In this document: one piece after another, positions 804-63,069 of the stretch
Layout: the number at the start of each line of letters is the position of its first letter
Position numbering within the stretch: position 1 is the stretch's first letter
From: Narcine bancroftii
Lineage: Eukaryota
NCBI RefSeq assembly: GCF_036971445.1
Contig: NC_091469.1
Span: forward strand, 268,460,001-268,524,000
Direction: 5' to 3'
DNA length: 64,000 bases
Notes under the pieces: generated by a model
Told to the model about the DNA's origin: nothing
Database searches by the model: none
Seen by the model: only the letters and a program-made list of their open reading frames with translations
Translations under genes and position numbers: made by a program

Positions 804-918
804 AAAGAAGCTTGAAGAAAATTAAAGACTAAAGAAGATTACAGAGGATTACAGACAACTTCAAGGTGATAAGAATTTTCTCTTTGACTCAGTACTTTTG
901 GGGCTGGAATATTTCCTC

Positions 919-27266: not shown

Positions 27267-27729
27267 GGCGCCATTTCCTTCTAGTTTCCCCACATCTGAC
27301 ACCATGTTTCATCATATATTCCTGTGTGTGTGTGTTCTTAAGATAACGCAAGGATGAAGGAAAGGGTTCTTTACTGTAAACTTGATAATGAACAGGGTCA
27401 TGAGACTAAAAATCTTCACTACAGCTCCAACACCCTGTGAGCCTCTAGCCCCTGGAAGCAGCCAAGTATAATCAAACAGTTAGGCATTGCTAATTGCTTT
27501 GCATCCTTGCATGTATATAGTTTTGCAATTAATCCGCTTGCTTTCATTTATCCAAACTGGCAACGGGAAGTAAAAATGTTTTGCTGTATAAAGTTTGACC
27601 TGCTGGACCGTATTGTGCTTTCATTGCCCCCCACCACCTTGTGAATAAAGCCTAATTTGAAATTTAGAAATAAAATCCAAACAGTTCGTGGAGATCTTTC
27701 TTTTTATGGCACTTTAATTTATTTTGGTG

Positions 27730-28100
27730 CATCAGACCGAGCCCGCCGCTCGCAGCTCAGCCCCGTCCCCTAGTGCTGAGTGGCGGCAATCGGGCTGCTT
27801 CCACACCCACTGCGGCCAGAACGAGAAGACATCGGAAGCGCTCGGCTGACGCAAGCTGGGTGAAAGTGAAAGGACATCGACGTTTGTGAGATGGCAAGGG
27901 AGGCGATCGTTCGTCGCTGGCGGGTGCGGTCCGGCTCGGCCACGGACGGCCGGTCGGGGATCCGAGGGTTCGTGATGCGGGCGCTGCTCGCTGGCTCCCT
28001 CGTCGCCCTGGCAGGTAAACGGGCGGCTCGTCCCGCTGGGGCAGCTCCCAAATGTGGGGCCCGACAGAGGCGGGGAGGGTGGGGTGATCAAGCTTCTCTT
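27730..28100 (+). promoter_or_regulatory. CpG-island promoter with ISRE/IRF-E, CRE-like and ETS-like motifs
   Basis: GC/CpG-rich patch in AT-rich surroundings. GAAAGTGAAAG at 27862-27872, TGACGCAA at 27847, CGGAAG at 27833, all just upstream of the signal-peptide exon. Confidence 0.65.
27975..28014 (+). CDS. Exon 1, signal peptide (alternative in-frame ATG at 27891)
   Basis: MRALLAGSLVALA followed by phase-1 donor G|GTAAAC, inside the CpG island. Confidence 0.65.
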
Positions 28101-31100: not shown

Positions 31101-34100
31101 ATTTTAGTAAATCTTTTGTGAACCCTCTCTACCTTATTGATATCCTTCCTATAATTTAGGGACCAGAACTGCACAGTGTATTCCAAATTTGGCCTCATCA
31201 ATGCCAACATCACCTCCCAGCATCTATATTCTATGCTTTGATTTATGAAAGCCAGCATACCAAAAGCCGCCTTTACCACCCTATCTACATGAGAATCCAC
31301 TTTCAAAGAACGATGAACCGTTATTCCAAGATCTCTCTGTTTCTCTGCATTCCTCAACACCCTTCCCTTCACTGAACATGTCCTGTTTTGATTATTCTTC
31401 CCAAAATGAAGCACTTCATACTTATCAATATTAAACTCCCATCTGCCATCTTTCAGCCCACTCTTCTAAGCAGTCCAAATCCTCCTGCAGTCCCTGAAAA
31501 CCATCTTCACTATCCACAACTTCCCCCTATTTTTGTATCATCTGCATATTTACTAACCCAATTTACCACTCCATCATCCATATCATTAATATAAATGATG
31601 AACAACAAGGGAACCAACACCAAACCCTGAGGCACACCACTCATCACTAGCCTCCATTCTGACAGACAGTTATCCACCATGACTCTCTGCCATCTATCTT
31701 CTAGCCACCATTGAACCCATCTGACTGTCTCAACATTTAATATCTAGCGCCTGAACTTTCCATGTGGAACCTTAACAAAGGCATTACTGAAATCCACATA
31801 GACTACATCCACTACTCTACCCTCATTGACCTTCCTAGTCACCTCCTCAAAAAATTCAACAAGATTTGTAAAACATGACCTTCACCTCACAAACCCATGT
31901 TGGGTGTCCTTGATCAAACCCTGCCCCTCTAGATACTTATACATATCTCTAAGAATACTTTCTATTAGTTTACCAATCACTGACGTCGAACTTACTGGCC
32001 GATCATTGCTGTGCCTACACCTGGAGCCCTTTTTAAACGGAGGAACCACATCTGCAACACGCGAATCCCACGGCACCATGCCTCCCTTTAGTGACTATTG
32101 AAAAGTCACTGTCTGAGCTATTCATAGATTTGTAAAAACCATTCAGATTTACTTTCACTCTATTTGCTATAGGCACCTTCTTTTCACTATCCTAATTTCT
32201 TTCTTAAGCTTTTTACAATTCATGTATTTTCCAAGCATCTCGTCCATACCTTGCTTCTTGTATTTAATGTAGGCCTCCCTTTTATCTCAAACCAACTTTC
32301 TAATCTCCCTTCAAAACCACGGCTTTCTCGAACTTTTGGCCCTGCCTTTTATCCTAACAGGAACATAAAGATTTTGCACCTTCAAAATCTTACCTTTAAA
32401 TGACCTCCAATTCTCCTCTACCTCCTTCCCATAAAACAAATCAGCCCACACCATTCCTTGCAAATCCCTTCTCATTTAATCAAATCTGGCTTTCCCCCCA
32501 CTCAAAAATCAGACCTATCCCTTTTCATAATTATATTGAAACTATTAATTGTGGACAAAGTTGTAAAAGGCTTTATTTCAGATATGTATAGGTTGTTACA
32601 GGAGAAAATGGAGAAAGTAGATATGAATAAGGTTAAAGAGAAATGGGAAAAAGATTTAGATATTGTGACCTGGGAAGAATGGTCAAAAATGTGTGTGGAT
32701 AGTGTTACAAAGTTAATTAGCATGAGGTTTAATATGGTTAATTATAATTTTTTACATCAATTATATTTAACTCCTGAGAAATTAAAGAGATATGGATTTA
32801 GTCTAACAGACTTGTGTTTGAGATGTGGAGGGAAAAAAGGTACTTCTATACATTCAGTTGTACTTTGTCAAAGACCCAAACACGAACATACACTATTAGT
32901 TAAAATAACAACCTTTTCTCTTTGGCTTATATCATCAGAATTCCTTTGCCTATATATTGGCCACCTGCAGCAACATTAGTGGTGAAAGAAAATCCCCCTC
33001 TGAACGTATCTTCAGTTTGATCATGGGTTTCAATGGAGGTGGGAGGGAAGAGTTGACGTAATGGAAAATCACAATATAGATGGTTTTCTAGGAATGCAAT
33101 CCCTCTGTAATGCAGGGATGCACTGTAATTTACTGTTAGCATTCAGTAAATGGGATGCCACTTCCATCAAGGTGATAAAATAATTGCCACCATGTGTGAG
33201 ACCACAGCAAGCTGCTTGGAAGACCAAGATGGTATCTGAACTGTTCACAAAGGGGCCAGGCTCATTTGAATGTTGCTTATAGAACTTTCCTGCACTGTCC
33301 TCTGAGAAGGGCATTAGCTCTTTGAGACTTTGAAAAGGGCATAGAAGAGATTTACAAGGATGCTGTCTGGTTTAGACGGTACAAGGAGAGGTTGGACAAA
33401 CTTCGCTTGATTTCTCAGAGGCTGAAGGGAGAACTAATGGAATTATTTTAAATTATGAGAGGCACATATGGGTAGAGAGAACATTTTTCTCAGGGTAAAA
33501 TGCCACGTAGTAAAAGATATCAGTTTAAGGGAAAGGAGGTGGGAAAGGGGGGATTTTAAACGAAATGTACGGGGCAATTTTTTTTTCACATGGAGATTGG
33601 AGGTGTCTGGAAGGGGCTGCCAGGAAGACTGGTGAAAGATGATGCAGTTGTGGTATTTAAGAGACATCTAGGAGGACACACGACTATAAAGGGAATAGTG
33701 GGATACAAGTCAGGTGTAACATTTTAGTTTAAACTGGGCATCATGTTTGGTGCAGACATGAGCCAAAGGGCTTATTTCTGTACTCTACTCAGGAGGTTGT
33801 CTAACTTCAAGGATTTATGCAGTCTGATAGAGGTAGTGAAGGTGAGGTGGATATCAAATAAGTCCTATTTTGTGCCATGAATTGAATCGACTTAACTCCC
33901 AATTACAATTCTTGAATGGAGATTGTTTGATTTTTCTATTTACATTTAGAAACATGGGATGTGACAATTTTTAACGGACCAAAGGATGTATTATTGAATA
34001 CAAGCATTTCATTGGAATGTAAAATTACTGGGTTCAACACACCAGTGCTTGATCTAAAGAATGTTGGAATCCAGTGGTTGTTTGGACCTCATCGGCAAGA

Positions 34101-37100
34101 AATCTATGTCGTTAATGCAGGAAGACATTCCTCCAGTAGAGCAGGAACAGAAGTATTTGAAACTCTTTTACAGAAAGGAGATGTTTCACTTCATCTTACA
34201 AACGTCCAATTAAAAGACGAAGGAGAATACACTTGCGTTGTGTTTATCACTCCTGAGAAGGTAGAAAGGAGTTCAAAGCTGCTAGTGCTTGGTAAGAGAC
34301 TTCCAAAAAGTTACTTAATATGAATCTTTCTGTTAATATTGGATCAGAAGGAATACTGATTAGAAATTATGTCACATGGAGTTTCTAATGGTACACATAC
34401 ATGGACTACTGTATATGTCATAGTATAGGATGACTCGTGTATAGGACGACTACAAAATTTTCACCTAAAATGTTGGTTTTGAGCAAGACCCTTTGAATAA
34501 GACCCCCCCCCAAAAAAAAAACTGGCCCTTACTGCTTACCAGTGTATGCTGCTAAAAGCAAATCACAATATTTTTTAATAACAAATTATCATTTAAAGTT
34601 TAAATTTTATTTGGATATTTTAAAATAAACTAATGTTGGCTCATGTGACGGGGCATTTAAAGCCTGTACAGAGCCAACAGCAGTCGAACTGGGTGGATGG
34701 ACCCTGCGGTGGAGCGCCGAGACTAACAGGGCATGTGCAAGATTGCACTGGAGCCAGTCGGAAGATGGAGGCGATGTTGCAACTTTGTCATCAAGTTAAG
34801 AATATTAGTCTCTGTATATTCCAGATTTTAAGGTGAAAATTTTGTTTTGAGGATTGTAAAGGCTTAAGGAAATCTTATAAGATCAATATTTGAAAGAAGA
34901 AATGTACAGTAAAATCCCTGCTTCCAGAATTCAAGCACTCAGCAACAAGGTTGGAGAAAATAAATTGGTAAAAAGTACAAAAATTTAAAATTGGTTAGTT
35001 TGCCAATCGCGCAACATGCCATCTCAAACAACTGGAAAATTCACTAATCCCCATAGGAGCAGGAAACAGGGGGATTTCACTTTAGTACATTTTGTATGAG
35101 CGCAGCGGTAGTTTAGAATTGGCTTTCGGTATTTATGATGATGTAATTCATCCTGACCGATGTTGCAATTGTTTCAAAACAGCACAGCCAGCAGTGCATT
35201 TATCTACAGAACGTGTTACTATTCAGGATGGTGAGGAAAAATCTGTGTTCTGTGAAGCATCAAGATTTTATCCTCAACTGCATGAGATGTTCTGGCAAAT
35301 AATATCGAAGGGCGTAACAAAGAAAGTGAAAACAGATGTCCTGCTTGGAGCTGCGATTCTTAATCGTGATGGAACATTTAATGTTTCCAGTGGATTGAGA
35401 ATTAAACCAACTCTGGATGATGATGGTAATCTGTACAGATGTACTGTGAGGCATCAGTCCTTTTCTGGCACTCGTTCAAAAGACGTGGAACTCACAGTGG
35501 CAGGTACTTTCTATCCTTTGGATCGGTTATGCTGCATACTTTTGTCAAATGTTTAATATTTATTAAATGGTTTATTCATATTTAACAAATAACTTCACCT
35601 GAGATTTGCAGCTTATTAAAATCAAAGATTCACTGTTTCTTATTGCACCACAAGAAGATAATTGGCTTAGAAGTTGGGTCATGTCTCAAAATGAACATTC
35701 GAATGGGGTTTGAGCAAGGATGTTTGGTGACTGTTCTCACTGACCTGGTCAGTAATTCATTCATCTTTCCATGCCACTGTCAGTGCTGTCCCTTCCTAGC
35801 TGCCTTGAGTATCTATTTTGCCATGAGTATTTTTTTCTATGTTCACTATTGTTCTGTCTCTAGTTTTTTTTTTAAATTTAGTCCATGCAGGGCCAGTTTT
35901 TAACCTCTTCATTCTAATTTTCAACGACCGAACCAATTACTGCTGTGACACACTCTGATGCACATGCAAATAAATTGAGTCAAACATTGAGCTACAAATA
36001 GCTCTCACAATTCTTCAGTTATTTCTTGTTGCATCAAAGTAATGGAATTGTTAAATTAAAATCTAAGTCCCTTAATTAATGCAAATATAAGAAAAATATT
36101 TACAGTGTTCATGTACTGTTATTCATATTTTACAAAAATGGATGAGTATCAAAGCATAAAAGCTTATCTCGCATGGGAATTTTTTGTGTAAATGCTCATT
36201 ATTGTGTCTTATACATTTCAGAGCCATCGAAATCTTCAAAAGGACCTTTAATTGCAGTTATAATTGTTGCATTTCTGGTGTTACTTGCTGCCTGCTTATT
36301 TTTTTATTACTACATGAAACTGCGAAAAGGTAATTCGATGACTGGTAAAACCCCTTTCTTGTTTTGAAAATGCGTGGGTTAGATCAGAGAATCTAGCATG
36401 GATTCTGTCCATTCAGCTCATTGAGACCTTGCTAATCATCAAGCATTCATTTAATCAAATTCCATTTCATTTTCCTATCATCCACCCCAGATTCTATTGC
36501 TCACCTAAGCACCAGGGGTAAATCATAATGGACAATTCACTGGCCGACTAGCTTGGTTTTGAGGTGTGGTAGAAAGTGGAAGATCCCAGAGGAAACTCCC
36601 TTAGTAATTGTGAACGTGACTCAGGCAGGCACAGAAACACACGGGGCACAGACTCATACGGCATCATCTGGTCATTCGATTCCCACATTGTTGTTGGGCA
36701 GAAGACCTGGTTTGAGGATTTAATTATGAATGGAATTTGGCATTCTTGGCTCAACATAATAAAATTTGATATGCAATAGGCAAAATTGATGGAGACACTC
36801 AGCATCTTCAGGAAGTAAAGGATAACCAACATTTTGGGCCTGGGTCCTTCATTCATGTGTTGTCAAATGCCTCGGGCTGGAAACACCGGGTACCCATTAC
36901 TCTTTAGATTTATTGACTAAGAGTACGTGCATGACATCACGTACAACCCTGAGATTATTTTCCTCTAGGTGAGGCAGAATTAGCACTTATTGGTTGTGCA
37001 AAAAAAAACTGTACCCAATCTACACAGGTGAACAAATAAGGTAATGTAAAGAAAATGCAATGCCGAGAGGAGGAAAAAAACAATAAAAAAGAAAAAGTAA

Positions 37101-40100
37101 GGAGTCCTTAAATGAATCTTTGAATTTGTTGTTGAGGAGTCTGAAGGCGGAGGGGGAGCAACTGTTTCTGAACCTGGTGATACGAGTCTTGTGGCACCTT
37201 TGCCTCTTTCCTAATGGCAGCAGTGAGACAGAATGTGTGCAGGGTGGTGTGGGTCCTTGATGACTGCTATTACTCTCTGATGGCAGAATTCCCCATATAT
37301 GTTCTCAGTGGTGGGGGAGAGTTTTGCCTATGATGTCCTGAACTGTGTCCATGGCCTATTTGCAGGGCTTTATGCTTGGGGGTATTGGTGTCCCTATACT
37401 GACCGTGATGCAACTGGTCAGCATACTTTCCACCACACCTCTGCAGAAATTTGCCAGGGTTTCTGATGTCATACCAACCCTCCTCAAATTCCTGAAGAAG
37501 TAGTGTGTTGGGTCCAGGAAAGATCCTCTGAGATAGTGACTCCCAAGAACTTAAATTTGCTCATCCTCACCACCTCTGCTTGCCCAGTGATCACTGGATC
37601 ATGTACCTCTGGTTTTCCCTTCCTGAAGTCAACAATCAACTCTTTAGTTTTGGTAACATTGAGTGCAAGGTTGTTGTTGGTGCACCATTTAGCCAAGTCT
37701 TCAATCTCCCTCCTGTATGCTGGCCTATTGCCCCTTTTAATACAACCCACTACTATGGAATCAGCAAATTTGTAGATGGTGGTGTTATAATTAATTTCTC
37801 TCCCCCCAAGTTTACCAATAAAGTCTCACTAATGTACTTAATAATATACTAAAAAAGACTCTTATCAGGCAGGGATAGGGAGACACTTTGGAAGAGTCAC
37901 CCCAGTGACAAATGACATCGATCATCTCTTCATCCTGGATGCCAGTACTTAATTCAAACACAACTTTATTGAAACTTTATTCAAAAGCTACTTTGGGCTG
38001 GTCACAACTGGGGTGCTTGCAGGCTGAACGTTTGTTTCCAAGGGTTTTGTGTGGCTTTGGAGAACGTTTATTTAAAACTTTATTTAAATTCTTATTTATC
38101 TCAAATTCTATTTATTTATTTATTATTTTTGCTGGTTGTTTGAGATTCTGGTTGAATGAGTAACAGATAATGGGGATTTTACTGTATAACCTAAGGGAAA
38201 TCCCCATCCTGTTTATCTACATGAACACAAATTGTACCTTCAAGTCGATTGTCATCTGATTGTACAAGTATAACCCTATGAAACAGCGTTCTCTGGTCCT
38301 CGGTGCAAAAGATGCAGACACACAACCAGGCATAACGTACATACAGACAAACAATACATAAGCAGTGCAAGTATTTCACCTATACAAATAAATCAATAAG
38401 AATTGCTTTTTGTACATATGGGAGTCTCGGATGGCTAGTGGTTGTTCGGCATTCTGACTGCCAGTGGCAGGAGCTGTTCCTCAGCCTGGTGAAGCTGGCT
38501 CTGATATTCCTGTATCTCTTTCCAGACAGGAGCAGCTGAAATATGCTGTATGCAGGGTGGGAAGGGGTGCTCAATGATTCTCATTGATTTTGTGCATCTT
38601 GGCTTAAAGATTGAACATACAAGGAAAACAAATGATTGTCAAATTTTAATTACTTGTTTTATTTTGACTAGTTGCTCCAGAAATTACTGGATGTGAGGAC
38701 CGTAAAATCATGAAACATTTAGAAGAAGAAGTAGTCACTTGGAACATTAGCTCATTTCGACCTTGTGAGATTATAATTTGGTTGTATGTAAAGAGGAAGG
38801 AGAAGCATGCGAAAAGTCCAATTTTTAATTGGAGTGCCAAAAATCGTACTGAGAAAGCAAATGGATTAAAGGTCAAAGGTGATCATGAAAACGTGAAACT
38901 ACTTGTGAATTCAGATTGGAAAGATGAATCATTTAAGCCTTTGGATCCTGAATTTGAAACTAATTCAGAAGGAATTTCCAGAGTCAAGATCAGTGTTAAA
39001 ATATATCCTGATGTTATCACTGATGATGAGGCTGAATTAATTATAGAAGTTCAACATCAAGCTCTCAAGCAACCAATAACAAAGTCTTTAACATTGGATG
39101 TTAAAGGAGGTAAATTACAATCATTTACTATGACCATTAATCTCTTTATTGATTTCTTTCTGAAAATCTATGCTTAACATCTATAGTTTATGACATTGAT
39201 GTGGATGTTTGTGTTAAATACAGTTCTGACATGGTGAACTAAACATTGAGAAATATTAAGACAGTAAAAATAATATTTTCTTGCTCGTGTGGTTGTCAAT
39301 TAGCGTGATTACATTATTTTCTTTTTCTTTCCCAAAGTTCCACCTAAGGTTTTAAACATTTTGGTGCCACCTCACGTCAATCACAATGAATTTGTGGCTT
39401 TGGCTTGTACAATCACTGGATTTAAGCCAAGCCCACTAAGTATTATCTGGCAACAGAAGAGAAAGAACAGTGATTTGGAAGAAATTGTTCGGCTGGAGAG
39501 GGACAACAGAACAATCTTTTTCAGTGGCACAAGGGAAAAATATAATGAAAAACATTACATCTGTGAAGCACAGCATGATGACAAAACTTGGAGCAAAACC
39601 AGTGTATTGGTTATTGTGCCAGATATAAACCAAGACCAGGACTCGCAGTACCTCTGTCAGATACAGCACCCCTGCACTAACAGTAAACAAGAGCAAGAAA
39701 TAATGCTAAAAATTGCAGGTATGTATACTTTTATCTAAGCCCTTGCATAGATAGAAGACACAGAATTAGAGGATACTCCAAAGAGCGCAGTGTCTTGAAT
39801 GGCATATTTTACTAATTTCTGTCTGAAGGCAGAAATATGTTTACAAAGAAAAGGATTTAAGAACATGCAAAATAAATCAATTAATAGGATATGATTATAC
39901 TGAAGTTAAAAAAATAATGTAATTTATAGTTTTATTTTTTATCTTTTTTCCATAGTTTTCAAAACCATATGTGATAACTTTTCTGGCTGTTGGCCATGTA
40001 AAAGCAAAATAGTTTCACCAATCTGCTTTGTTTTCTCTTTCAGCCACACCTAAACTGGGCACTATAAAATGTAGCTCAGAAAAAATAATTCTAAATGTAC

Positions 40101-46100: not shown

Positions 46101-46376
46101 TCTTTCCCGCACCCCCACCATTGCGGGATCAGGGCAGACATTGTGGGCTGACGTGTAGCTCACTCGAGGTGGGAGGGAAGGAAGGAGTGATAGTTCCCAG
46201 TGGTGGGAGACCCAATCTGATCCAGACCAGTGATCACAGGATGAGAACCTTTTAAAACCTTTGAAACGAAAGTGTTAATCTGAAGACTTTTCTCCCAGTG
46301 GGGCCAGTGCAAGGCATTTTCTCTCTCTATCTCTTGTGCTCTGTGTATCTGCCTCTCTATCTCTTTCTCTCGCTAT

Positions 46377-46436
<60 letters not shown>

Positions 46437-52400: not shown

Positions 52401-55400
52401 CACAAACGAGCCTGCAGCTGACGTGGACTTTTTACCCCCTCCATAAATCTTCGTCCGCGAAGCCAAGCCAAAGAAAAGGTAAAGTACATTGGACTGAATT
52501 TAGGTGGTCTGGACCATACACTGTTACCGCCGTAACAGATAGGTCGGTAAGAATTGACAAACCAGGGGATCATAATTGGCATCATTTTGCCTACTGTTCC
52601 AAGGCAAAACAGCACGTAGCCAGCCTTGATAGAATTGATGAGACTCATGCAGACGATACCGGGGGCCCTATGGGCAGTACTACTAATGGGATGCCAGATA
52701 AGTCAGCAGAATAGCTCGGATTCCTGCGGGGCCAAAGTTATTCTAAAGGTAGACAAAGACAGGGATAACACCTTCCAGTTCGATCTATGCAGTATAATAG
52801 CGTGTGGTAAGAATGAGGCGTCCTGGAGAGGATATGATGTTTACATGTGTGCCTTTCAAATAGGATATCCTAAATGGGGTCTACATGTCTGTCCGTCTTG
52901 GGGTGAGGTTTGGTGGTGGACAGGACCCGACACTAGATGGATAAGAAAACCCCTTAACAAAGGGTCCAGCAAACCTTATTATAATTTTTTCACTAAAATC
53001 TCCCTGATACGTGGTGCTGTGACCTATTCAATGAAAGGAGAGAATCCCCTGATTTTGACAGTAAAGGCGGGGCTGCGCAACCCGTGGAATATGAAGGGAT
53101 GGAGCTCTAAGACATGCGAGGGGGGCACAGGGAGAGAACATGGTGTCGGAGACCTCTTCTATCTAATGATTGGAGTGTCTATTAATGGAAAAGATCCTTG
53201 GGGAGTGGTGAGGTTCGACTTACTAACATACACAAAGGTCATAATTAAACCCACTTCGAAAGAGGGGGAAGTGAGAAAATTCGACAGTACGAAGATGTCC
53301 AGGGGAGAGAAGATAGCAATTGAGACAGGTATTGATGAGTCAAACTCCTGGATAGATCAGATGGGTAAATATGCGGACCAAGCAGGCTATGGGAACTGCT
53401 GGGTCTGTGCCCGAGGAAGGCCATTATTACGGATGAGCAGATCAATTTTTGAGGAGACAGATGCTATGGACTGCGCCTTGAACCTAATGTCTGATATGGG
53501 AACAGACGTTTCCCATAGCTCCGGCTAATGTAGCTCCCCCTGTCTTTAGATCCACAGGCATAACTAATGTTACTTGTTTTGCCAACAACAACACAGCAGC
53601 GCACGTTTTCCATGTGGGTTGGCTGCCCAGCGACTCGTGCAGGACTCATGTTGATCTCTCACATAGCAGTAGTGCAACCCGCTTGACCCAGGCTAGGGCG
53701 GATATTTGGTGGTTTTGTGGAGGAAGAGTGCTGTACAACTGGCTCCCCGCTAACTGGGATGGTCGGTGTGCTCTAGTAACCCTTAATGCGCCAGTGCTGA
53801 TTGTCAAAAGGCAGGAGGGAGACGAGGATTCCCTAGAATTGCACCACACAGAGAGTTGGCTGTGGAGAAAAAGGAGGAGTGTTGGACTCTTGGGGCCGGG
53901 AGGAAGGAACCCTGATGGGGTATGGATTGATGCCATTGGCCAAGCCCGGAATATTCCGGACGAATTTAAATTAGCCGATGAGATTGCAGCTGGGTTTGAA
54001 AGCTTTCCTGTTTTTAGTGCAATTTTTCCCATCACTGTAAATAAGAATGTTAATAGGATCAACCTTATTCACTATAATGTCCAGCGCCTTGCAAATTTGA
54101 CCAGGGACGTTGTTGAGGCAATACATCAACAACTGTCAGAAACTTCCCTTATGACACTTCAAAATAGGATAGCGATTGATATGGTCCTGGCAGAGAAAGG
54201 TGGAGTGTGTGCTATGTTTGGAGATCTATGCTGCACTTCTATCTCTAATAACACAGGGCCAGATGGATCACTCACTAAGGGGTTAACGAAACTTAGGGCA
54301 TTGGCGAAAGAATTAAAAGCCCAGTCTGGAGTCTCCAATCCTGTTTTATCCTGGTTACAGGGAGTGTTTGGGAGATGGAGCACATTGTTAGGACAACTTT
54401 TGCTGGTTTTGTTCATTTCTGTATCAATTTTTATCACTTGTGGCTGTTGTTGTATTCCATGCATTCGAACGCTGGTCACGAGGACCATAGAGAGAGCCTT
54501 TGCTGACCGTGATGAACTGCCTCCGAAATATCAAGCTGTGCAGGCTGTGGAGCAAGACTATCTCACATTACAGGAGGCGGAGAAAGTTGCTGAGATCGAT
54601 CTGGAGTCTGAAGGGGAATGTGATGGGAAGGAGGGATTGTGAATTAGATTGTTACACATATAATTTTAACCTTGCTTGTAACCTAAATATTATAACCTTG
54701 ATTGTAGAACAAATATTATAACATTGATTGTAACACAAACATTATTAATCAGATTGTAGAACAAGTATTATGAATTAGATTGTAGACCATATGTTAACTT
54801 GGGAATTTACTAATGTACGGGGGGGTTAGCTAGTTTTTTGCTTGGGGGCAAATGGGATGAAACTTGTAAACGGGCAATGGGATCGGGGTGACGGATGGGG
54901 GATGTACGCAAAGGAGGGTTGGGGGAGCCCTCGCCCACCAGCCGAACTAACCTGTGAACAGAACCCGTATAGAGCTTGGCAATAATAGGCGAACTAATGT
55001 AACGCGGTGGTAGCATAGTCAGGGCGAGATTGTCCTCTAAAGAGGACAAAGGAGGGATTGTAAGGTAAAACATCATGAGATGGGAATGTGTAAGGAGTTA
55101 CCCTGTACAGGGCTGTAACAAGATGTGAATGCATCCTTGTACTTACAAGATAAGAGAGACATTGATGGATTGAGAGGCAGGAAGCTAGCAGGGAAAGGAT
55201 AGCAACAGTTTTAGTCATTGGACAAGTAATGATATGATGATGTTCTAAGCACGTATCCAAGGGTATAAAAAATCACCATTTTGCTGATAACAGCAGAATG
55301 CATTCTCCGACTAACATGGTTAGTCGCAAGTGTTACAATCCGGTAATAAAGAACAAAGAGCCCTGATTTCGACTCAGTCTGGTGTTTGTCTCACTCACTC

Positions 55401-58400
55401 ATGAACAAAGCAGACCTAACAATTGTCGAGCTTTGCTTTGAGGTTTGCCTGGAAGTTTCCTCTCACTTCGTCTGACTGCAGGTTTCCAACATTGAACCTC
55501 TTTCTAGGGGCTCTACTGTTCCTGGGGTTTGGCTTGAAGTGAAGGTTGAGCTTGCAGCGAACCAGCCGGTGGTCAGTGTGACATTCCGTGCTGGGCATGA
55601 CCCTGGTGTGGAGCACATCTCGTTTGTCTCTTTCTCTCACCAGGACGTAGTCCAGGAGGTGCCAGTGTTTGGATCGGGGATGCATCCAGGTAGTCTTCAG
55701 GCTGTCCCTCTGCTGAAAAAGGGTGTTTGTAATGACAAGCCGCTGTTCTGCGCAGAGCTCCAACAGGAGGCGCCCATTCTCGTTGCACTTGCCGACACCA
55801 TGCTTGCCCAGGATTCCTGGCCAGGTTTCTGAGTCTTTGCCGACGCGAGCGTTGAAGTTGCCAAGGATGACAACCTTGTCGGCTGTAGGGGTGTGTTGAA
55901 TGAGGTTGTGCAGGTCAGTGTAGAACTTGTCCTTTTCTGCTGGTTCTGCCTGGAGGGTTGGAGCATAGACACTGATGAGGGTGATGCGACGCTTGTTTTG
56001 AAGGGGGAGTCGCATGGACATGATCCGGTCCGAGTGGCCTGTCGGGAGGTTTTCGAGTTTGGAGGCAATGGAGTTCTTGACCAAGAAGCCTACACCAGAG
56101 AGGCGTCATTCATCCAAAGGCTTGCCAGACCAGTAGAGTGTGTAGAGTGTGTAGCCTGCGCCGCGTTCTTGGAGGCTGTCTACATCTGCCAGGCGGACTT
56201 CACTGAGAGCGGCTATGTCAATGTCAAGTCTGAGGAGTTCATGTGCAATGAGGGTAGACCGACGTTCAGGTCGGTGGCTGTCAGCCTTGTCTAGCATGGT
56301 TCTGATGTTCCAGCATGCTAGCTTGAGTTTGTGAGCATCTTTTGAGGGGGAGGACGTGGAGGGGGAGGACGTGGACCTGTCCTCGGGCCTGCGCAAAGGA
56401 GCTTTTAGGTGGAGTGCAGTGTGCGCAGTACTGGCCCCACCCTTTACACCCATGCTTCGTGTGCCGTGGCCAAGCAAGCTGGGACGTGGCAGCGATGTCC
56501 TTGGGTCGTAGGTTTTATATCGGAGTTGCCTTCTCCTATGCAGTTTTCTTACCAGGGCTGGAGGGGTCTGCCTCCCCTCCTAGGTCGGCCCATACTGCCT
56601 GGACTGGGGCCGCCGCCTCCAACTCTCTGCCCGGACCGGGGCCTCCAAAATACTCCTCTAACCTCCTCTTAAATGATAGAACTGACCCTGCCACAACTTC
56701 TTCCTCAGGTAGATCATTCCACTCAGCCACCACTCTCTGAGTGAAGAAGCATCCTCTTATATTACTCCTAAAGTTTTGACCTCTAACCCTTAACTTATGA
56801 CCCCTTGTTCCAATCTCACCTACACTTAGGGGAAAGTGCCTATTCACATCTACTCTATCTATTCCCTTCATAATTTTAAATACCTCTCAACCTTCTACGC
56901 TCCAGTTAATAAAGTCCTGGTCGACTCACTCTTCCTCTGTATTCAAGATTATATGAAAATCTTGTTCTCTTTCGAGAATAAAGTGACGTGGTTTTCATCG
57001 TCTTCTGATGAATGATGCAGTATATGGGGGGGGGGGGGGAGGAGGAAAGAATCATGACAAATAACAAAACAATTAAGAACCATTATGAGAAAGAAAGAAA
57101 GTACTTTTCATTTTCTATTCATGACAGTCAATTGCCTGTCGCCATTGAATATCTATTGCCATTTTTGTCCTTGCTGTTTATTAACCAGAGATAATGTGGA
57201 ATTTGTACATATCAGGATTACACCAACAGCAATGTATTAAATGAACACTTGATCTGTTTTGATGAATTTTGAGGGTAAAATAGTGGTCAAGACATCGGGA
57301 GAGCTATCTGTTCTTCAGATAAAGTGCAATCAAACTTTTGATGTTTACATGAACAAGTGGTCCAGAATCTTTTTAAGGCTTCAGAGTTCTTTAAACATTA
57401 TTTTAAGGTCCTAATGTAAATTACTTCAAGTCCAACATTGTGAATATAATTCAGGCTTCATTTCAGGTACAGAAGAATTTCTGAATGTAGTTGGGTGGAA
57501 ATATTTGTGCCCAACTCTATATTTGGCCAGTGAAAAAATCCATGTACGAAACTTTAAAGCTGCAGGCCTGACCTTTGAGTTAACTAATCTATGGCAGGGA
57601 TAAATTGCTAAAATCTATCTCTGGCTTAGACCTTGGGAGATGAATTGTCGCGTGCGTGCGTGCGTGCGTGCGTAAAACCTCAACTATGAACTGTTCTATA
57701 GAATTTAAAAAAGAGAAAGGATAGCGTCTCATATTTTCTGAGCTTGACCACTTAAAAATCAGAACCAGAATTTATTGTCATGAACAAGTCATGAAGTTTG
57801 GTGTTTGTCAGCAGCGTCATAGAGCAAACGTACATATTATAACCATCTTACAACATTACTAAAATAAAATAATACTAGTGTACGAAAAGTAAGGTAGTAC
57901 CTTTGGTTCATTGATTATTCCAGAATCTGATGGCAGCAGGGAAGAAGCTGTCCTTGTGCCGCTGAGTGCTCGTATTTAGGCTCCTGTATTTTTTCCCCGA
58001 TGGTAGCAGAGTGAAGAGGGCCTGGCCTGAGTGGTGGGGGTCTTTTGAGGATAGAGGCTGCTTTTTTAAGACACTGCCTCATGACTAGTGTCAATTTTCG
58101 TTTAAATTGTCATGTTCTTTAAGTTATGCATTTAGTTGAACTTTCTTTTTTTCTCTCCCTTTTCTCTGTCCAGGTTCATTGCCGACGCTCACAGCAATTG
58201 AGGCAAATCCACCTTGCCCGGAACTAGGACATCCTTTAATACTTTCCTGCAAAGCTTCTGGATTCTATCCAGAAACAAATCAAGTACTCTGGTTCAAAGA
58301 ATTTGATAAAATCACAGATGGAATTGAAACAGGAAGAAATGTTTTAGATACAGCCAGTGGTTTGTACTCACGATCATCCCAGTGGAGATTCAAACCAACT

Positions 58401-61400
58401 GTTAATGATCACGGAAAAGAGTACAAAATGCAATTCCTTCATTTTGAAACTTCAAACAAGCCTCTCACAGCCAGTTATGTTTTGAAATTGAAAGGTAAGC
58501 CCTGTTTCCACAAAAGCGTAGGACCAAAAGAACAAAAATGGAAGCAGGAAAGGCCCTTCATGGGTGGCCTGACATTCTGTAAGAGCACAGCTGAACTTTT
58601 ACCTCAGTTCCATATTCTTGCCCTCGCCCACATCCATTAGATACTAAAGAGTTCTCAATCTCTGTCTCGAATATAAGCAGCCTTCACAGCCACCTTTATT
58701 CTCATCATTTTTCAGCCAGTTGAAATAACAATTTCATAATCGGCCTGGCCAGCCCCATAAGATTTATTTTTGTATTTTAGTGGGATCTGTTATAAAGTGA
58801 GTAGCATAAAGTTGTGAGGTGTCTGAAATATCACCAGAAGCAAAACTTGAGCCATTGATTTTGGATTTTATTTCATCTTAAATATTCATTACTGTAAATG
58901 ACTGGTTTCATGAATTTCAACAGGAATTCCCTATGTTGAAGACATAAAATGGAAACCACAGAAAGCAATGTATGGCACAGAACTTGCTCTCACCTGTGAA
59001 GTAAATAACTTTATTCCAAGAGACATCAGAACACAATGGCAAAGAGGAAAAATTCCAATAACCAAAGGAGTTGAAATTGACGGTCCTAAGATGAACCAAA
59101 ATCAATGTTTTCAATTGGTGTCCTGCTTGTATGTAAAGACAACTGCTCTGGATTTTGATGAAGACATTTCCTTTTGTGTGTCCCATTCTAAATTATCTGA
59201 GATAATAATTAAAAAGGCATCTTTAAAACTTCAAGGTACGTTTCACAAAATCTCCTTGGCTTTTTACATTTCCCATCCCACCCAAAGATTTGAATATGTT
59301 CACTTTATATAGGTACACAATCCTTTATCTGGACATCTAAAATCCAGAAGCTCAAAAATCTGGCAAATGGGGAGAGAGAAGGCAGCGCGAGTCAGGCAGG
59401 CGAGGGGGAGAGACCAGAAATATGAGTCAGGCGGGTGAGAGACCGGCAGTGCGAGTCGGGAGGGCAAGGGGAAGAGACTGGATGCGCGAGTCGCTTGGGC
59501 GAGAGACCGGCAGGACAAGTCGGGCAGGTGAGAGACTGGCAATGCGAGGGGGAGAGACTGGATGTGCGAGTTGCACGGGCGAGAGACCGGCAGGGCAAGT
59601 CGGGCGGGCAAGTGGGGGGGAAGACTGGCAGCGCGAGTCAGGTGGGCGAGGGGGTATGGAAGGGGGTGGGGTTGGATATGGCATCACAATTTGGTGGGCT
59701 TAAATCTGGCTTTCCAACATCCGGGAAAAATCCACAATTCAGAACACACTGTCCCCCAAGGGTTCCGGATAAAGGATTGAGTACCTATATTTGCACGTGG
59801 CACATCATGATTGATTGTTGAGTGAGAAAATCACTGATTTATGTCCCACTTTTGCAATAAATTGCCAAAAAAGTTGGAATTAGTTAAGTTTATTCATAAA
59901 ACTGCAACATAAAGTTATTAAAATGGAGCATATATGGTTTAAATTTAAAATGTTTAAATTATTGATAGACAGCACGGTAACAGGCCATTTTGGCCCAAGA
60001 GCCTGCGCTGCCCAATAACACCCAATTAACACAGCGCCTTGTACGCTTCAAACAGTGGGAGAAAACCGGAGTCCCTGGGGTGGGGGGGGGGGGGGTGGAA
60101 CTATGTAGACATGGGGAAAATGCACCAACTCCTTACAGACAGCACGGGATTCGTACCCCTGTCCATATGCTGGCACAGTAACACTAAATAATTGCACTAA
60201 CTGCAGAGTTAACCGTGCTGCCTAGTAAAAGTTTAAGTAAATTGTAAAAAAAAAAGGATTTAAAATAAATGCATCTTTTAAATATTAATCAGAATAAAAT
60301 TACATAAAAGATCAAAATATTTTAATTGATCAGATTCAGAATTGATATTTATAGTGGTCTGTCACCTTTGCTACAAGGTGGGATACTTTGAATAAAGTGA
60401 TGAACTGGATATCTATAAAAATATTCCAGTGATTCAAACAAGTAATTTTCAAAATGGTTCATGTGCTTTTAACTTGTGTCTATTGCAAACAATTTTTTTT
60501 TCATGTTGTTTAAAATTAATTATCTTGATTCACTGGCTAAACATTCAACTTTTTTTTTCTCAGCTCTTGCTCCTGACATGTCTGATATTACAAGTAATCC
60601 AAAGATACTTAAGGTTAACCAGAATGCAGAATTCAGTGTCTCATTGACACATTATGTTCCTGATAAACTGCAAATAAAGTGGTTTAAAAATGAAAAGCTT
60701 TATGAAGATGTGGTTAAGAGCCCTCCTAAGATTGCAGATGATGGTTTATTTTCATCAGTTACAAGCTTAACATTTATGACAACAGAAAATGATCATGAAA
60801 ATATCATCAAATGTGAGGTGTTTCATGAAAAGACAAAACGAAGACAAGAAAAACTTTTCAAATTACTTTTTGAAGGTGAATCTTGTTCGATAAATGTTGA
60901 GTTTAGCATGACACATTTTATTTAAGTTTTAACTGCATTGATGATTTCTTTAAACTTAAAAATATTAATTTAAATGTTTCACATCAAAGCTTCTCATTGA
61001 GTAAACTAGTTATTTACTGACGCGGAGAATAGATCATTTTGATGACTTCATTTGTTTAAAATCTGATGAGGTGAGATACTTAACCTTTCAACTGCTGATT
61101 TGATTTGACTAATGTCCGGCATAACTTATATCCTGTTTTATCCTACAGATGGTGGAGAAATTAAACCGGTTGCCAGTTTCGACAGTAAAGGTAAATTGTT
61201 CATTTTGAGAAGTTCCAGTTTTGTATATGTTCACTTAAATCTTTTGTCGCGTGCGTGAGATTTTAGACCCATGTATTACCATTTGAAATGGCATCTGTGA
61301 GTTGCCCTATGCTGCCTGCCAGCCTTCTTCATAGCTCAGCTAATCCATTGTCTTCATTACTTTAAAACAAAAAAAGGGTGGTAATGATGTGATAATTTTC

Positions 61401-63069
61401 CATTATTGATTTGATTTGCAGTCAGTTTTACCAATCCAATGAATTTCCACACTTTCTAGGTGAAAAATAGAAAAAATGCACTTATATAGCCAAATACAGC
61501 TGCAATAAAGACTTTGTAAAAAAAAAAATTATTCACAAATGTGTATATTTTTGTGTTTTTCCTAATTGAATTAGGAAAGATTAATGAAATGCTCCTCTCC
61601 AAATGGACTCCTATGCACCATGTATATAGAAATATGGAACATAGATATATCAGCGGTGTACAGGTACTTCGGCTCACGCACATGTGCCCACCCTATAAAC
61701 TTACCAAAAACTCCTCCATACTTTGTAACCCTCTATTTTCATTTCATCCATGATCCTGTCTTAGTCTCTTAAATACCCCTATTGTTCCAGCCTTCATTAC
61801 CACCCCTGGCAATGCATTCCAGGTACCCACAACTCTCTATGTACAAAAAAAAAGTAACCCCTCGTCTCTCCTAAAGTTTATGAGCTGCAATTTAAAAAGA
61901 ACTGTTGACTCTTCCATGGGCTTTGTCCTCATCAAACATTCAACATGGATTGGATACTCATTCTGAATTTTTGTGGATTTTTTTGTGCAAATTTCAGGGT
62001 CTACAAAAGTGTGTAATATCCTGTGAGCATCTACTTTAAAACAAGAATTGGTGATCACGATTGCTTGCTTTTTCTGCCAAGATCTTCCTGATCCTAACTC
62101 AGAACCTCATTCAATATGGATCCCACCCTGGTCTTGATTGTACATTTGTGATCAGTGAATTAACCAATCAAGTCCCTTTTAATCTTAGCCCTAGTGAATG
62201 GTATGGTTCAGACTCTAGAGTGTAGGCGGGGCAAGATTAGGTATGCTGACATCTGATTTGCTGTGTTCAGGAGGAAAGAGAAATACAGTCAGTGTGTGCG
62301 GAGATGGCGTCAGAACAAGCCTAAGCGGGGGCATTAGGGTAACCATGGGGTGGGAGGAGGGGGCATGAACTGTTGTTCGAGAACACACACAATGCGGGGG
62401 GGAGGGGGAGAGCGGGTGCTCTGTGCACCACTGTCACACTTTGCCCTCTCCGAGGTAACCGACAAACATGTGCTTATAGCACATGGAGACGAAACCACGT
62501 GATTCATTTTGGTGACATCTCCTGGTGTGGTCTGCAACCCCCAGTGATGGGTGGGGGGGAGGGCTATGGCCCACGGATGCCATCCCCCAAAGACCCTGAC
62601 CCTGTGTATGTGTCTATGGAGTGGATGTGATATTTTGTTGACACGAAAGCTGGTGATTTATAGAAAATCTTGTTGAAGAGTCTTAATTTTAAGAAAATAT
62701 TTCAGAAATCAACATTTTTGAAATGTCATGAAGATTTTCAAGTTATTTATTGTAAATTATATTCCAACAGGTACAGTTGAAGTGGTATCAAATGTGACTT
62801 GTCAAACAAAAAATCCTAAAGTTGGACGACCTGTTACTCTTTCCTGCGACGTTTATGGACATTTTGCAGAAGATGCTCATATCATTTGGTACAGAGCTGC
62901 TTATCCTTTTGATGAAAGAAAATTTGTCACAAACACACCATTCAAAAATAATAAAGGATTCACTACAGCACTCACTTATACGCCGAAAGAGAAAGATAAT
63001 AGCATCCAAGTTTTTATTGATATTGATATGTCGGAACATATCAGAAGTTACAACTTGCAATTACATTGA
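27975..63069 (+). CDS. NCR3LG1-like: B7-H6 (NCR3LG1)-like type I membrane IgSF protein: SP-IgV-IgC1-TM plus seven C-terminal Ig C1-like domains; 12 exons, about 1072 aa
   Basis: join(27975-28014, 33950-34291, 35183-35503, 36222-36329, 38672-39109, 39338-39718, 40044-40346, 58174-58494, 58924-59235, 60564-60875, 61149-61190, 62771-63069). All introns GT-AG and phase 1, no stops. The V domain (VGIQW...GDVSLHL...EGEYTCVVFITPEK) and C1 domain (CEASRFYP) resemble B7-H6. Confidence 0.8.
28860..30640 (+). mobile_element. L1-clade LINE ORF2 fragment, decayed
   Basis: LDAKKAFDRVEW, QGCP.SPLLFNLALEPL and NIIKMNILP motifs across frameshifts. Confidence 0.75.
30650..32475 (-). mobile_element. CR1 LINE 3' portion
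   Basis: VPWDSRVADVVPPFKKGSR, QHGF, RPNLEY and FFTQRVVAAWNDLP motifs; short-repeat 3' tail at about 30650. Confidence 0.85.
32475..32860 (+). mobile_element. L1-clade LINE 3' fragment
   Basis: KEKWEKDL...NFLHQLYLTPEKL...CLRCG motif. Confidence 0.65.
33950..34291 (+). CDS. Exon 2, IgV domain (B7-family-like)
   Basis: Acceptor TTTAG|, donor G|GTAAG; canonical Cys-Trp-Cys with DEGEYTC. Confidence 0.92.
35183..35503 (+). CDS. Exon 3, IgC1 domain
   Basis: CEASRFYP...W...DGTFNVSS...YRCTVRH; phase 1-1 splice sites. Confidence 0.92.
36222..36329 (+). CDS. Exon 4, transmembrane helix
   Basis: LIAVIIVAFLVLLAACLFFYYYM followed by basic KLRK; TTTCAG| acceptor and G|GTAAT donor. Confidence 0.88.
36880..37790 (-). 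mobile_element. Rex1/Babar-like LINE 3' portion
   Basis: AYRREIEDLAKWCTNNNLALNVTKTKELIVDFRK...FKFLGVTISEDLSW. Confidence 0.8.
38672..39109 (+). CDS. Exon 5, C1-like Ig domain without canonical cysteines, with a long loop insertion
   Basis: VTWNISSFRP...EGISRVKISV...LIIEVQHQALKQPITKSLTL; 146 codons, phase 1-1. Confidence 0.82.
39338..39718 (+). CDS. Exon 6, IgC1 domain
   Basis: LACTITGFKPSPLSIIW...YLCQIQHP; phase 1-1. Confidence 0.9.
40044..40346 (+). CDS. Exon 7, IgC1 domain
   Basis: LSCSIFGFYPKEILVTWLKNG...DGLY...YTCQVEHVSL; donor A|GTAAGT (alternative phase-1 donor after 40337). Confidence 0.9.
40440..41100 (-). mobile_element. L1-clade LINE 3' end fragment
   Basis: AT-rich decayed ORF2 C-terminus (..CIPLEKITY..) and poly-T at about 40432. 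Confidence 0.55.
44131..44493 (+). repeat. ERV 5' LTR
   Basis: TG...CA; TATAAAA at 44336 and AATAAA at 44417. Confidence 0.97.
44497..44514 (+). promoter_or_regulatory. Primer-binding site, tRNA-Trp
   Basis: TGGTGACCCCGACGTGAT, an 18-nt complement of the vertebrate tRNA-Trp 3' end. Confidence 0.92.
45813..46515 (+). other. 703-bp non-viral insertion in gag, bounded by a 9-bp direct repeat
   Basis: AAACAAAAC at 45804-45812 and 46507-46515; pyrimidine tracts, (CT)n and AATAAA at 46474. Confidence 0.8.
46378..46432 (+). repeat. (CT)n microsatellite
   Basis: Pure CT dinucleotide run. Confidence 0.95.
48435..52714 (+). pseudogene. pol: ERV pro-pol: protease, 2H phosphoesterase-like domain, RT, partial RNase H, integrase
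   Basis: In frame with gag across a TGA. Motifs VDTGA, HVTL twice, LPQGY, YVDD, HHCC, D-D-E and WSGPY. Lesions: frameshift near 49932, large in-frame deletion near 50212, stop at 51278, RTE insertion at 51482. Confidence 0.93.
51482..52476 (+). mobile_element. 5'-truncated RTE LINE inserted in the ERV integrase
   Basis: Near-identical to the other RTE copies. AGGT is duplicated at 51478-51481 and 52477-52480; removal restores IRKPG-KVHWTEFRWSGPY. Confidence 0.95.
52638..54642 (+). pseudogene. env: ERV env (gamma-type) with one frameshift near 53505
   Basis: Signal peptide, SU CWVC, furin site RKRR at 53866, ISD-like LQNRIAIDMVLAEKGG, CX6CC, membrane anchor. Confidence 0.93.
54641..54800 (+). 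repeat. Degenerate ~26-bp tandem repeat (about 6 units) in the ERV 3' UTR
   Basis: Units such as CTTGATTGTAGAACAAATATTATAAC and ATTGATTGTAACACAAACATTATTAA. Confidence 0.8.
55059..55421 (+). repeat. ERV 3' LTR
   Basis: Copy of 44131-44493, preceded by PPT AAAGGAGGGA at 55048-55057. Confidence 0.97.
58174..58494 (+). CDS. Exon 8, C1-like Ig domain (F-strand Cys replaced by Met)
   Basis: LSCKASGFYP...W...SGLYSRSS...YKMQFLH; long pyrimidine acceptor and G|GTAAG donor. Confidence 0.9.
58924..59235 (+). CDS. Exon 9, C1-like Ig domain
   Basis: LTCEVNNFIPRDIRTQW...ISFCVSHSKL; phase 1-1. Confidence 0.88.
59310..59787. mobile_element. Tc1/mariner (Tigger-like) MITE with internal GC-rich tandem repeats
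   Basis: TIRs AGGTACACAATCCTTTATCTGGA and TCCGGATAAAGGATTGAGTACCT with TA flanks; ~33-bp GAGAGACCGGCA...GCGAGTC units at 59370-59650. Confidence 0.75.
60564..60875 (+). CDS. Exon 10, C1-like Ig domain (B-strand Cys replaced by Val)
   Basis: FSVSLTHYVPDKLQIKWFKN...DGLFSSVTSL...IKCEVFH; phase 1-1. Confidence 0.88.
61149..61190 (+). CDS. Exon 11, 14-aa linker micro-exon
   Basis: TTTTATCCTACAG| acceptor and AAG|GTAAAT donor; 42 bp, DGGEIKPVASFDSK, phase 1-1. Confidence 0.65.
62771..63069 (+). CDS. Exon 12, terminal Ig-like domain ending in a stop codon
   Basis: GRPVTLSCDVYG...IIWYR...FTTALTYTP...YNLQLH*; no second transmembrane segment. Confidence 0.82.

What the first reader, a model, noticed from the sequence alone, without database searches (positions are those of the whole stretch)
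27975..63069. B7-H6-like receptor with seven Ig domains on the cytoplasmic side of the membrane
Seen: signal peptide, IgV, IgC1 and a hydrophobic helix ending in basic KLRK, followed by seven further C1-like Ig exons. All splice in phase 1 into one stop-free frame of about 1072 aa that ends without a second membrane anchor. Established: B7-family proteins are V-C-TM with tails that lack Ig domains, C1-set domains are normally extracellular or luminal, and the positive-inside rule predicts type I topology. Inference: this is a B7-H6-like ligand or receptor with an ~800-aa cytosolic Ig array acting as a scaffold or sensor. I cannot tell from the sequence whether this architecture is already described in fishes.
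Basis: partly seen in the sequence, partly recalled or inferred. Interest (0 to 1): 0.9.

Follow-up and report, generated by a model that had tools for sequence, protein, structure and literature searches.

The report
Ray B7-H6 with inward Ig chain
This is an electric ray's copy of the immune gene B7-H6, and behind its membrane helix it carries seven antibody-like domains that are predicted to sit inside the cell and likely act as a scaffold; chimaeras, coelacanth, lungfish, bichir and amphibians have the same layout, whereas the human protein has a retrovirus-like tail there.

Summary
The ectodomain's best solved match is human B7-H6, and the gene lies between a nucleobindin and KCNJ11 as mammalian NCR3LG1 does, with two tandem paralogues of the same layout: a B7-H6 co-orthologue. 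The layout is old: 76 of the 150 best relatives have it, including chimaera, coelacanth, lungfish, bichir and amphibians, and domains cluster by position. A cytosolic location is predicted, not measured: N-glycan sequons are enriched only before the helix (227 against 126 expected; 202 against 194 behind), and the Ig cysteine pair is kept in 146 of 147 outer but 117 of 276 inner domains. The tail's job is inferred (scaffold for display or turnover of the ligand). This scan already noted the same thing in a skate (e1-8584256). Ten literature searches found no description, but the key B7H6 evolution papers were unreadable and I recall a zebrafish report of intracellular-Ig membrane proteins.

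The parts
27891..28014 (+). Exon 1 coding part: long basic n-region and signal peptide (aa 1-41); second in-frame ATG at 27975
   Evidence: signal peptide is predicted from a hydrophobic stretch present in 15 of 17 aligned relatives
33950..34291 (+). Exon 2, IgV domain (outer)
   Evidence: Pfam V-set E 1.8e-11; spliced in contigs
35183..35503 (+). Exon 3, IgC1 domain (outer)
   Evidence: Pfam C1-set E 1.4e-8; V+C1 matches human B7-H6 at E 2.9e-30
36222..36329 (+). Exon 4, transmembrane helix followed by KLRK
   Evidence: joined to exons 3 and 5 in 4 of 4 runs
38672..39109 (+). Exon 5, inner C1-like domain 1 (D5), neither canonical cysteine, long C-D insertion
   Evidence: no Pfam Ig hit; hhalign 99.8% to D6; beta-sandwich model
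39338..39718 (+). Exon 6, inner domain 2 (D6), both cysteines kept
   Evidence: C1-set E 5.3e-7
40044..40346 (+). Exon 7, inner domain 3 (D7), both cysteines kept
   Evidence: C1-set E 6.1e-17
44131..55424 (+). Endogenous retrovirus inside intron 7 (not part of the protein)
   Evidence: LTRs 362 of 366 identical; gag knuckle, protease, RT, integrase, env Pfam hits
58174..58494 (+). Exon 8, inner domain 4 (D8), F-strand cysteine lost
   Evidence: C1-set E 3.2e-8
58924..59235 (+). Exon 9, inner domain 5 (D9), F-strand cysteine displaced by one residue
   Evidence: C1-set E 2.3e-9
60564..60875 (+). Exon 10, inner domain 6 (D10), B-strand cysteine lost
   Evidence: C1-set E 5.2e-9
61149..61190 (+). 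Exon 11, 14-aa flexible linker
   Evidence: pLDDT under 50 at aa 988-1004
62771..63069 (+). Exon 12, inner domain 7 (D12) and stop codon
   Evidence: C1-set E 0.011; hhalign 99.1% to D8

Best explanation
This gene is one of three tandem B7-H6 (NCR3LG1) co-orthologues of an electric ray, encoding a V-C1 ectodomain, one membrane helix and seven C1-like Ig domains that are predicted to lie in the cytosol and likely form a flexible, non-enzymatic scaffold controlling where and how long the ligand is displayed. Shown: exons, splicing of exons 1-7, identity with the RefSeq protein, gene order nucleobindin - gene - two paralogues - KCNJ11, and the same layout across jawed vertebrates. Predicted from sequence (about 0.9): type I topology with the array inside. 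Inferred from human B7-H6 (about 0.55): the V domain is a ligand for an NKp30-type receptor on killer lymphocytes. Inferred (about 0.4): the inner chain, some 30 nm if stretched out and folded largely without disulfides, binds cytosolic trafficking or cortical partners, or pairs with a second chain as C1 domains do in antibodies, and so clusters, retains or turns over the ligand; each position has kept its identity since the common ancestor of sharks and bony fish, which fits position-specific partners.
For: Orthology: human B7-H6 is the best PDB sequence match (E 2.9e-30, 108 bits; next B7-H3 85 bits) and the modelled ectodomain fits it at TM-score 0.88, rmsd 2.4; NUCB exons 97-111 kb upstream and KCNJ11 136 kb downstream on the opposite strand, the order tabulated for human and cattle (PMC3608171, PMC4831767, passages). 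Topology, on 75 relatives: sequons 227 against 125.7 +- 10.2 shuffled before the helix (0 of 300 shuffles as high), 202 against 193.5 +- 12.7 behind it (78 of 300); cysteine pair 146 of 147 outer, 117 of 276 inner domains; net charge higher behind the helix in 57 of 75; signal-peptide-like stretch in 15 of 17. Scaffold: no ITIM, ITSM, ITAM or C-terminal PDZ-type motif in the tail and no Yxx-hydrophobic or di-leucine motif kept in more than 4 of 17 relatives; nine well-folded domains with no fixed mutual arrangement (mean pLDDT 79.9, pTM 0.40); inner domains about as conserved as outer ones (mean pairwise identity 0.27-0.36 against 0.34-0.37); 7 of 8 domain positions form one branch in 94-100% of bootstrap trees, D10 in 44%.
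Against: No partner, localisation or binding was tested. D6 and D7 keep the cysteine pair in 43 of 45 and 45 of 47 cases, unexpected in a reducing cytosol. Positive-inside fails in 18 of 75. Tail length varies widely: 16 of the 150 best relatives show no Ig domain behind the helix, and others repeat one domain six or seven times, which argues against a fixed geometry. Low pTM is also what a 17-sequence alignment would give. No NKp30 gene was sought in this genome, and with three paralogues it is open which, if any, binds it. Related sequences are not independent counts.
Confidence: 0.55

Rival explanations
1. Same gene and topology, but the inner array is a decoy or sensor for pathogen proteins: viral or bacterial factors that attack Ig-type folds or try to remove B7-H6 bind the tail, which stabilises the ligand or signals infection.
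For: The tail is the labile part: six D8-like copies in a Mobula paralogue, seven D5-like copies in Heterodontus, low-complexity tails in other cartilaginous-fish paralogues, and a Gag-homologous tail in human B7-H6 (PMC2715080, passage).
Against: Inner domains are not less conserved than outer ones between Narcine and Pristis (0.53-0.71 against 0.53-0.61); no codon-level test of positive selection was run; no pathogen partner is known to me.
Confidence: 0.2
2. The array works after release: the ectodomain is shed by metalloproteases, the stub is cut in the membrane, and the freed Ig chain acts in cytosol or nucleus.
For: Human B7-H6 is shed by metalloproteases (PMC6514059 section 9); the tail is a string of stable folded domains starting a few residues after the helix.
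Against: Nothing here shows cleavage; intramembrane cutting of B7-H6 is not known to me.
Confidence: 0.12
3. The seven domains are not cytosolic: the helix inserts the other way round, or the protein has two topologies, so the array is luminal or extracellular.
For: C1-set domains are normally secretory-pathway domains (established knowledge); D6 and D7 keep their cysteine pairs; the Narcine signal peptide is long and only moderately hydrophobic.
Against: Sequons and cysteine pairs are kept on the V-C1 side and not behind the helix; charge bias and signal peptides agree; human B7-H6 is type I.
Confidence: 0.06
4. Exons 8-12 belong to a separate or rarely joined unit and the main product ends after D7.
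Against: Two contigs holding exons 1-7 run on for 2398 and 2429 letters, room for the 1286 coding bases of exons 8-12 plus a 3' UTR; orthologues and both paralogues carry the same order. Even the short form would have three inner Ig domains.
Confidence: 0.04

Closest known systems
Human B7-H6 (NCR3LG1), ligand of NKp30
   Same: IgV-IgC1 ectodomain (30% identity in the structural fit, TM-score 0.88), single helix, position between NUCB2 and KCNJ11.
   Different: Human protein is 454 aa with a Gag-homologous tail bearing ITIM, SH2- and SH3-binding motifs (PMC2715080, passage); here about 800 aa of seven C1-like domains and no such conserved motif; three tandem genes instead of one.
Zebrafish membrane proteins with intracellular Ig-like domains ('icIg', about 2016; name and paper recalled, not found by any search)
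   Same: As I recall, type I proteins with Ig domains on both sides of the helix, reported from fish and amphibians.
   Different: Could not be compared; they may be the B7-H6 type or the second Ig-TM-Ig family seen here (29 of 150 hits).
Shark UrIg2 (VJ plus nine C1 domains; PMC12227049, passage)
   Same: A V domain and a long run of C1 domains from repeated exon duplication in a cartilaginous fish.
   Different: In UrIg2 the TM/cytoplasmic part follows all the C1 domains; here the helix comes after the second domain.
Titin, filamin, myosin-binding protein C (cytosolic Ig chains; established knowledge)
   Same: Tandem Ig folds working in the cytosol mostly without disulfides; titin I65-I70 ranks second in the fold search by repeat likeness only (TM-score 0.20).
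   Different: Those are I-set or filamin folds in soluble proteins, not C1-like domains on a membrane immune ligand.

Membership tests
B7-H6 / NCR3LG1 orthologue group | IgV + IgC1 ectodomain closest to human B7-H6 | tested here: met
   with the V exon alone B7-H3 scores higher only through its two V repeats
B7-H6 / NCR3LG1 orthologue group | Position between NUCB2 and KCNJ11 | tested here: met
   nucleobindin N-terminal exons upstream (NUCB2 rather than NUCB1 is inferred from position), Kir6.2 best match downstream; mammalian order from PMC3608171 and PMC4831767
B7-H6 / NCR3LG1 orthologue group | Type I membrane protein, V-C1 outside | tested here: met
   by sequence signals only; no bench test
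B7-H6 / NCR3LG1 orthologue group | Binds NKp30 | not testable with these tools
   no NKp30 sequence of this species was in hand
B7-H6 / NCR3LG1 orthologue group | Low on normal cells, induced on stressed or tumour cells | not testable with these tools
   contigs give no expression level; spliced contigs are present in 4 of 4 runs
Human-type B7-H6 protein | Gag-homologous tail with ITIM | tested here: not met
   tail is C1-like domains; no ITIM pattern; so not filed as the human form
Canonical C1-set Ig domain (inner domains) | Pfam C1-set above cut-off or profile match to C1 | tested here: met
   5 of 7 by Pfam, the other two by hhalign
Canonical C1-set Ig domain (inner domains) | B- and F-strand cysteine pair | tested here: not met
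   kept in 2 of 7 here (D6, D7); 117 of 276 across relatives; hence 'C1-like'
Canonical C1-set Ig domain (inner domains) | Pairing through the ABED sheet | not tested
UrIg / UrIg2 | All C1 domains N-terminal to the membrane helix | tested here: not met
   helix after domain 2
Zebrafish icIg proteins (recalled) | Homology and shared layout | not testable with these tools
   paper and sequences not found

The most novel reading that the evidence does not exclude
The ancestral B7-H6 of jawed vertebrates was a two-sided receptor: outside a ligand for killer cells, inside a chain of C1-type domains, the fold of antibodies and MHC, put to work in the cytosol as a signalling or pathogen-sensing platform; the human Gag-derived tail is a later replacement, and a second family with Ig domains on both sides of the membrane exists in bichir, frogs and turtles, so cytosolic C1 arrays are an overlooked class of vertebrate immune receptor tails.
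Probability: 0.25. Interest if true: 0.85.

Novelty: new variant of a known kind. Interest (0 to 1): 0.62.

Why it matters
C1-type Ig domains are the building blocks of antibodies, T-cell receptors and MHC and are normally outside the cell. A 450-million-year-old array of them on the inner side of the NKp30 ligand would change the picture of what B7-H6 originally did, would mark the human Gag-like tail as a replacement, and gives a natural series of disulfide-free C1 folds. It can be tested in Xenopus or cell lines. Databases already hold these proteins, most as 'uncharacterized'.

Tried and rejected
Reads on exons 8-12: not obtained, so joints 7-12 stay open. ESM Atlas on D5-D6 gave only generic C1/C2-set clusters at 0.90 or less. 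A search for shorter relatives with the ectodomain found none, and a profile of 22 short relatives found 23 proteins, all from frogs or cartilaginous fish, none from amniotes; both are word-limited and show no absence. Whole-model fold search mostly returns unrelated multi-Ig chains at TM-score 0.2 or less. No run was on record as RNA; spliced GT-AG joints show the contigs come from transcripts. tblastn with 18 relatives found no further Ig exon in the window. My first F-strand positions for D5, D8, D9, D12 and B-strand position for D10 were off and were corrected. The ectodomain tree does not resolve which paralogue is nearest to the mammalian gene, and held no mammalian row. Weak Pfam hits at E above 0.05 (NgoFVII_C, TcdB middle region, DUF943) were dismissed as chance. 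Literature: ten searches listed no paper whose title or abstract start describes this layout; Flajnik 2012, Ohta and Flajnik 2015 and Ohta 2019 were not held and could describe it.
Full report
Observation. Twelve exons on the + strand (27891-28014, 33950-34291, 35183-35503, 36222-36329, 38672-39109, 39338-39718, 40044-40346, 58174-58494, 58924-59235, 60564-60875, 61149-61190, 62771-63069) are separated by 11 GT-AG introns, all phase 1, and join to a frame of 1100 aa with one stop. The 1100-aa product is identical to P0001, RefSeq XP_069754451.1, 'uncharacterized protein' of Narcine bancroftii. The upstream ATG lies inside the spliced contigs and rays and chimaera have equally long N-termini, so 27891 is the likelier start.

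Transcripts. Four runs of one study, kept as contigs and only guessed to be RNA, hold the stretch. Laid on 27700-41000, 4 of 4 show all six GT-AG joints of exons 1-7, including TM exon to exon 5, each in one contig. Two of these contigs run on 2398 and 2429 letters past exon 7; exons 8-12 need 1286. The study may be the one behind the RefSeq model, so the two are not independent.

Domains. Pfam gives V-set and C1-set for exons 2 and 3 and C1-set above cut-off for 5 of 7 later domain exons. The two misses are C1-like by profile comparison: D5 matches D6 at 99.8% and the outer C1 at 98.8%, D12 matches D8 at 99.1%, reversed controls reach at most 10%. AlphaFold2 on a 17-row alignment builds nine beta-sandwiches, mean pLDDT 79.9, pTM 0.40, with low confidence only in the leader, the helix, the D5 insertion and the exon 11 linker.

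Identity. Human B7-H6 is the best solved sequence match (E 2.9e-30; B7-H3 2.4e-23) and fits the modelled ectodomain at TM-score 0.88 over 220 columns. The window lies at C1:268,460,001-268,524,000; nucleobindin exons lie at 268,376,780-268,391,387, two paralogous V exons follow downstream, and then a Kir gene on the minus strand whose best match is KCNJ11. Tables in PMC3608171 and PMC4831767 (passages read) give NUCB2, NCR3LG1, KCNJ11 for human and cattle. The gene is therefore a B7-H6 co-orthologue. Both paralogues have open V, C1, TM and six inner exons, and relatives of both match human B7-H6 best. Human B7-H6 is a 454-aa type I protein with a Gag-homologous tail (PMC2715080, passage). PMC13262535 (passage) notes that NCR3LG1 groups more readily with tapasin than with other B7 ligands, so 'B7 family' is a loose label.

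Spread. Of the 150 best representatives at 50% identity, 76 have Ig domains of this type on both sides of one helix, 29 are a second Ig-TM-Ig family, 16 have no Ig hit behind the helix, 1 has none before it and 28 have no helix called (helix by hydropathy 2.0, domains by phmmer with the nine Narcine domains). I looked up names for 20 of those representatives plus three ray proteins: the layout is in Callorhinchus, Pristis, Mobula, Pristiophorus, Heterodontus, Scyliorhinus, Latimeria, Protopterus, Erpetoichthys, Microcaecilia and three frogs, one of them labelled NCR3LG1. In a tree of 68 domains from 9 proteins, 7 of 8 positions form one branch in 94-100% of bootstrap trees, D10 in 44% (109 columns only). 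The array thus predates the shark and bony-fish split. The outer C1 groups with D5 and D6 (96/94), which suggests the first inner domains arose from it; the tree has no outgroup.

Topology. On 75 of the 76 (one with two helices left out), N-glycan sequons number 227 before the helix against 125.7 +- 10.2 in shuffles (0 of 300 as high) and 202 behind it against 193.5 +- 12.7 (78 of 300). The cysteine pair is kept in 146 of 147 outer and 117 of 276 inner domains (D5 2 of 71, D6 43 of 45, D7 45 of 47, D8 3 of 37, D9 9 of 30, D10 8 of 29, D12 7 of 17). Net charge is higher behind the helix in 57 of 75 (16 of 17 among full-length relatives). A signal-peptide-like stretch is present in 15 of 17. These agree on V-C1 outside and the array inside. 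Against: D6 and D7 keep their cysteines, and the rows are related, not independent. No dedicated signal-peptide or topology predictor was on hand.

Mechanism. The tail has no catalytic domain and no conserved short signalling motif; its domains are as conserved as the ectodomain and keep positional identity. I read it as a flexible scaffold that sets display, clustering or turnover of an NKp30-type ligand (0.55 for the whole reading; the scaffold step alone about 0.4). C1 domains pair through the ABED sheet in antibodies (PMC11926128, passage); pairing here could not be tested. Rivals are a pathogen decoy, favoured by lineage-specific repeat expansions and the human Gag swap; a released fragment after shedding (PMC6514059, section 9 read); reversed topology; and a main transcript ending at exon 7.

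Prior knowledge. Ten full-text searches listed no paper whose title or abstract start describes this layout; I read passages of PMC11599192, PMC13262535, PMC10751288, PMC12227049, PMC11926128, PMC7071772 and found none there. Flajnik 2012, Ohta and Flajnik 2015 and Ohta 2019, the papers most likely to mention it, were not held, nor their supplements. I recall, unverified, a 2016 zebrafish paper on membrane proteins with intracellular Ig-like domains. This scan noted the same layout in a skate B7-H6 (e1-8584256), seen after my reading was formed; I confirmed sharks and amphibians, and saw a reptile only in the second family.

Verdict. Real, transcribed, ancient and unusual: a new variant of a known kind. 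Interest 0.62, held down by probable partial prior description and the lack of any tested function.

Noticed in passing
window 44131-55424: Young endogenous retrovirus in intron 7, same strand as the gene: LTRs 362 of 366 identical, Pfam hits for zinc knuckle, protease, RT, integrase and env; pol is in pieces, a LINE fragment lies between integrase and env (about 51447-52421), and the element sits inside another LINE. The primer site after the first LTR looks like tRNA-Trp (recalled). A parallel to the Gag-derived tail of human B7-H6, probably coincidence.
   Followed up: partly
G000:C1:268563569-268592608 and 268621006-268644296 (L004-L013): Two tandem paralogues with open V, C1, TM and six inner C1-like exons each; one is like Pristis LOC127577746, the other like a lineage shared with caecilian and lungfish.
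   Followed up: yes
P0053, P0070, P0076, P0086 and others (29 of 150 hits): A second family with Ig domains on both sides of one helix, V-C1(-C1)-TM-(C1)n, up to 2158 aa, in frogs, bichir and a turtle; its ectodomain lies outside the B7-H6 branch.
   Followed up: partly
window 40347-41000: Contigs at about a tenth of the main depth read on into intron 7, where the frame stops after four residues and an AATAAA lies at 40485: a possible short form with three inner domains, or unspliced RNA.
   Followed up: partly
P0003, P0035, P0082, P0121, P0132: Tail variation among cartilaginous-fish paralogues: six near-identical D8 copies (Mobula), seven D5-like copies (Heterodontus), or long acidic or proline-rich low-complexity tails.
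   Followed up: no
window 39338-40346 (D6, D7): These two inner domains keep the cysteine pair in 43 of 45 and 45 of 47 relatives while their neighbours lose it; unexplained, possibly a redox or stability role.
   Followed up: no
window 826-4608: LTR retrotransposon gag-pol remnant (protease, RT, RNase H, integrase) upstream of the gene.
   Followed up: no
L022:8027-9214, minus strand: A 396-aa open exon whose start resembles PIK3C2A (recalled; no Pfam hit), where mammalian gene order would put it.
   Followed up: partly
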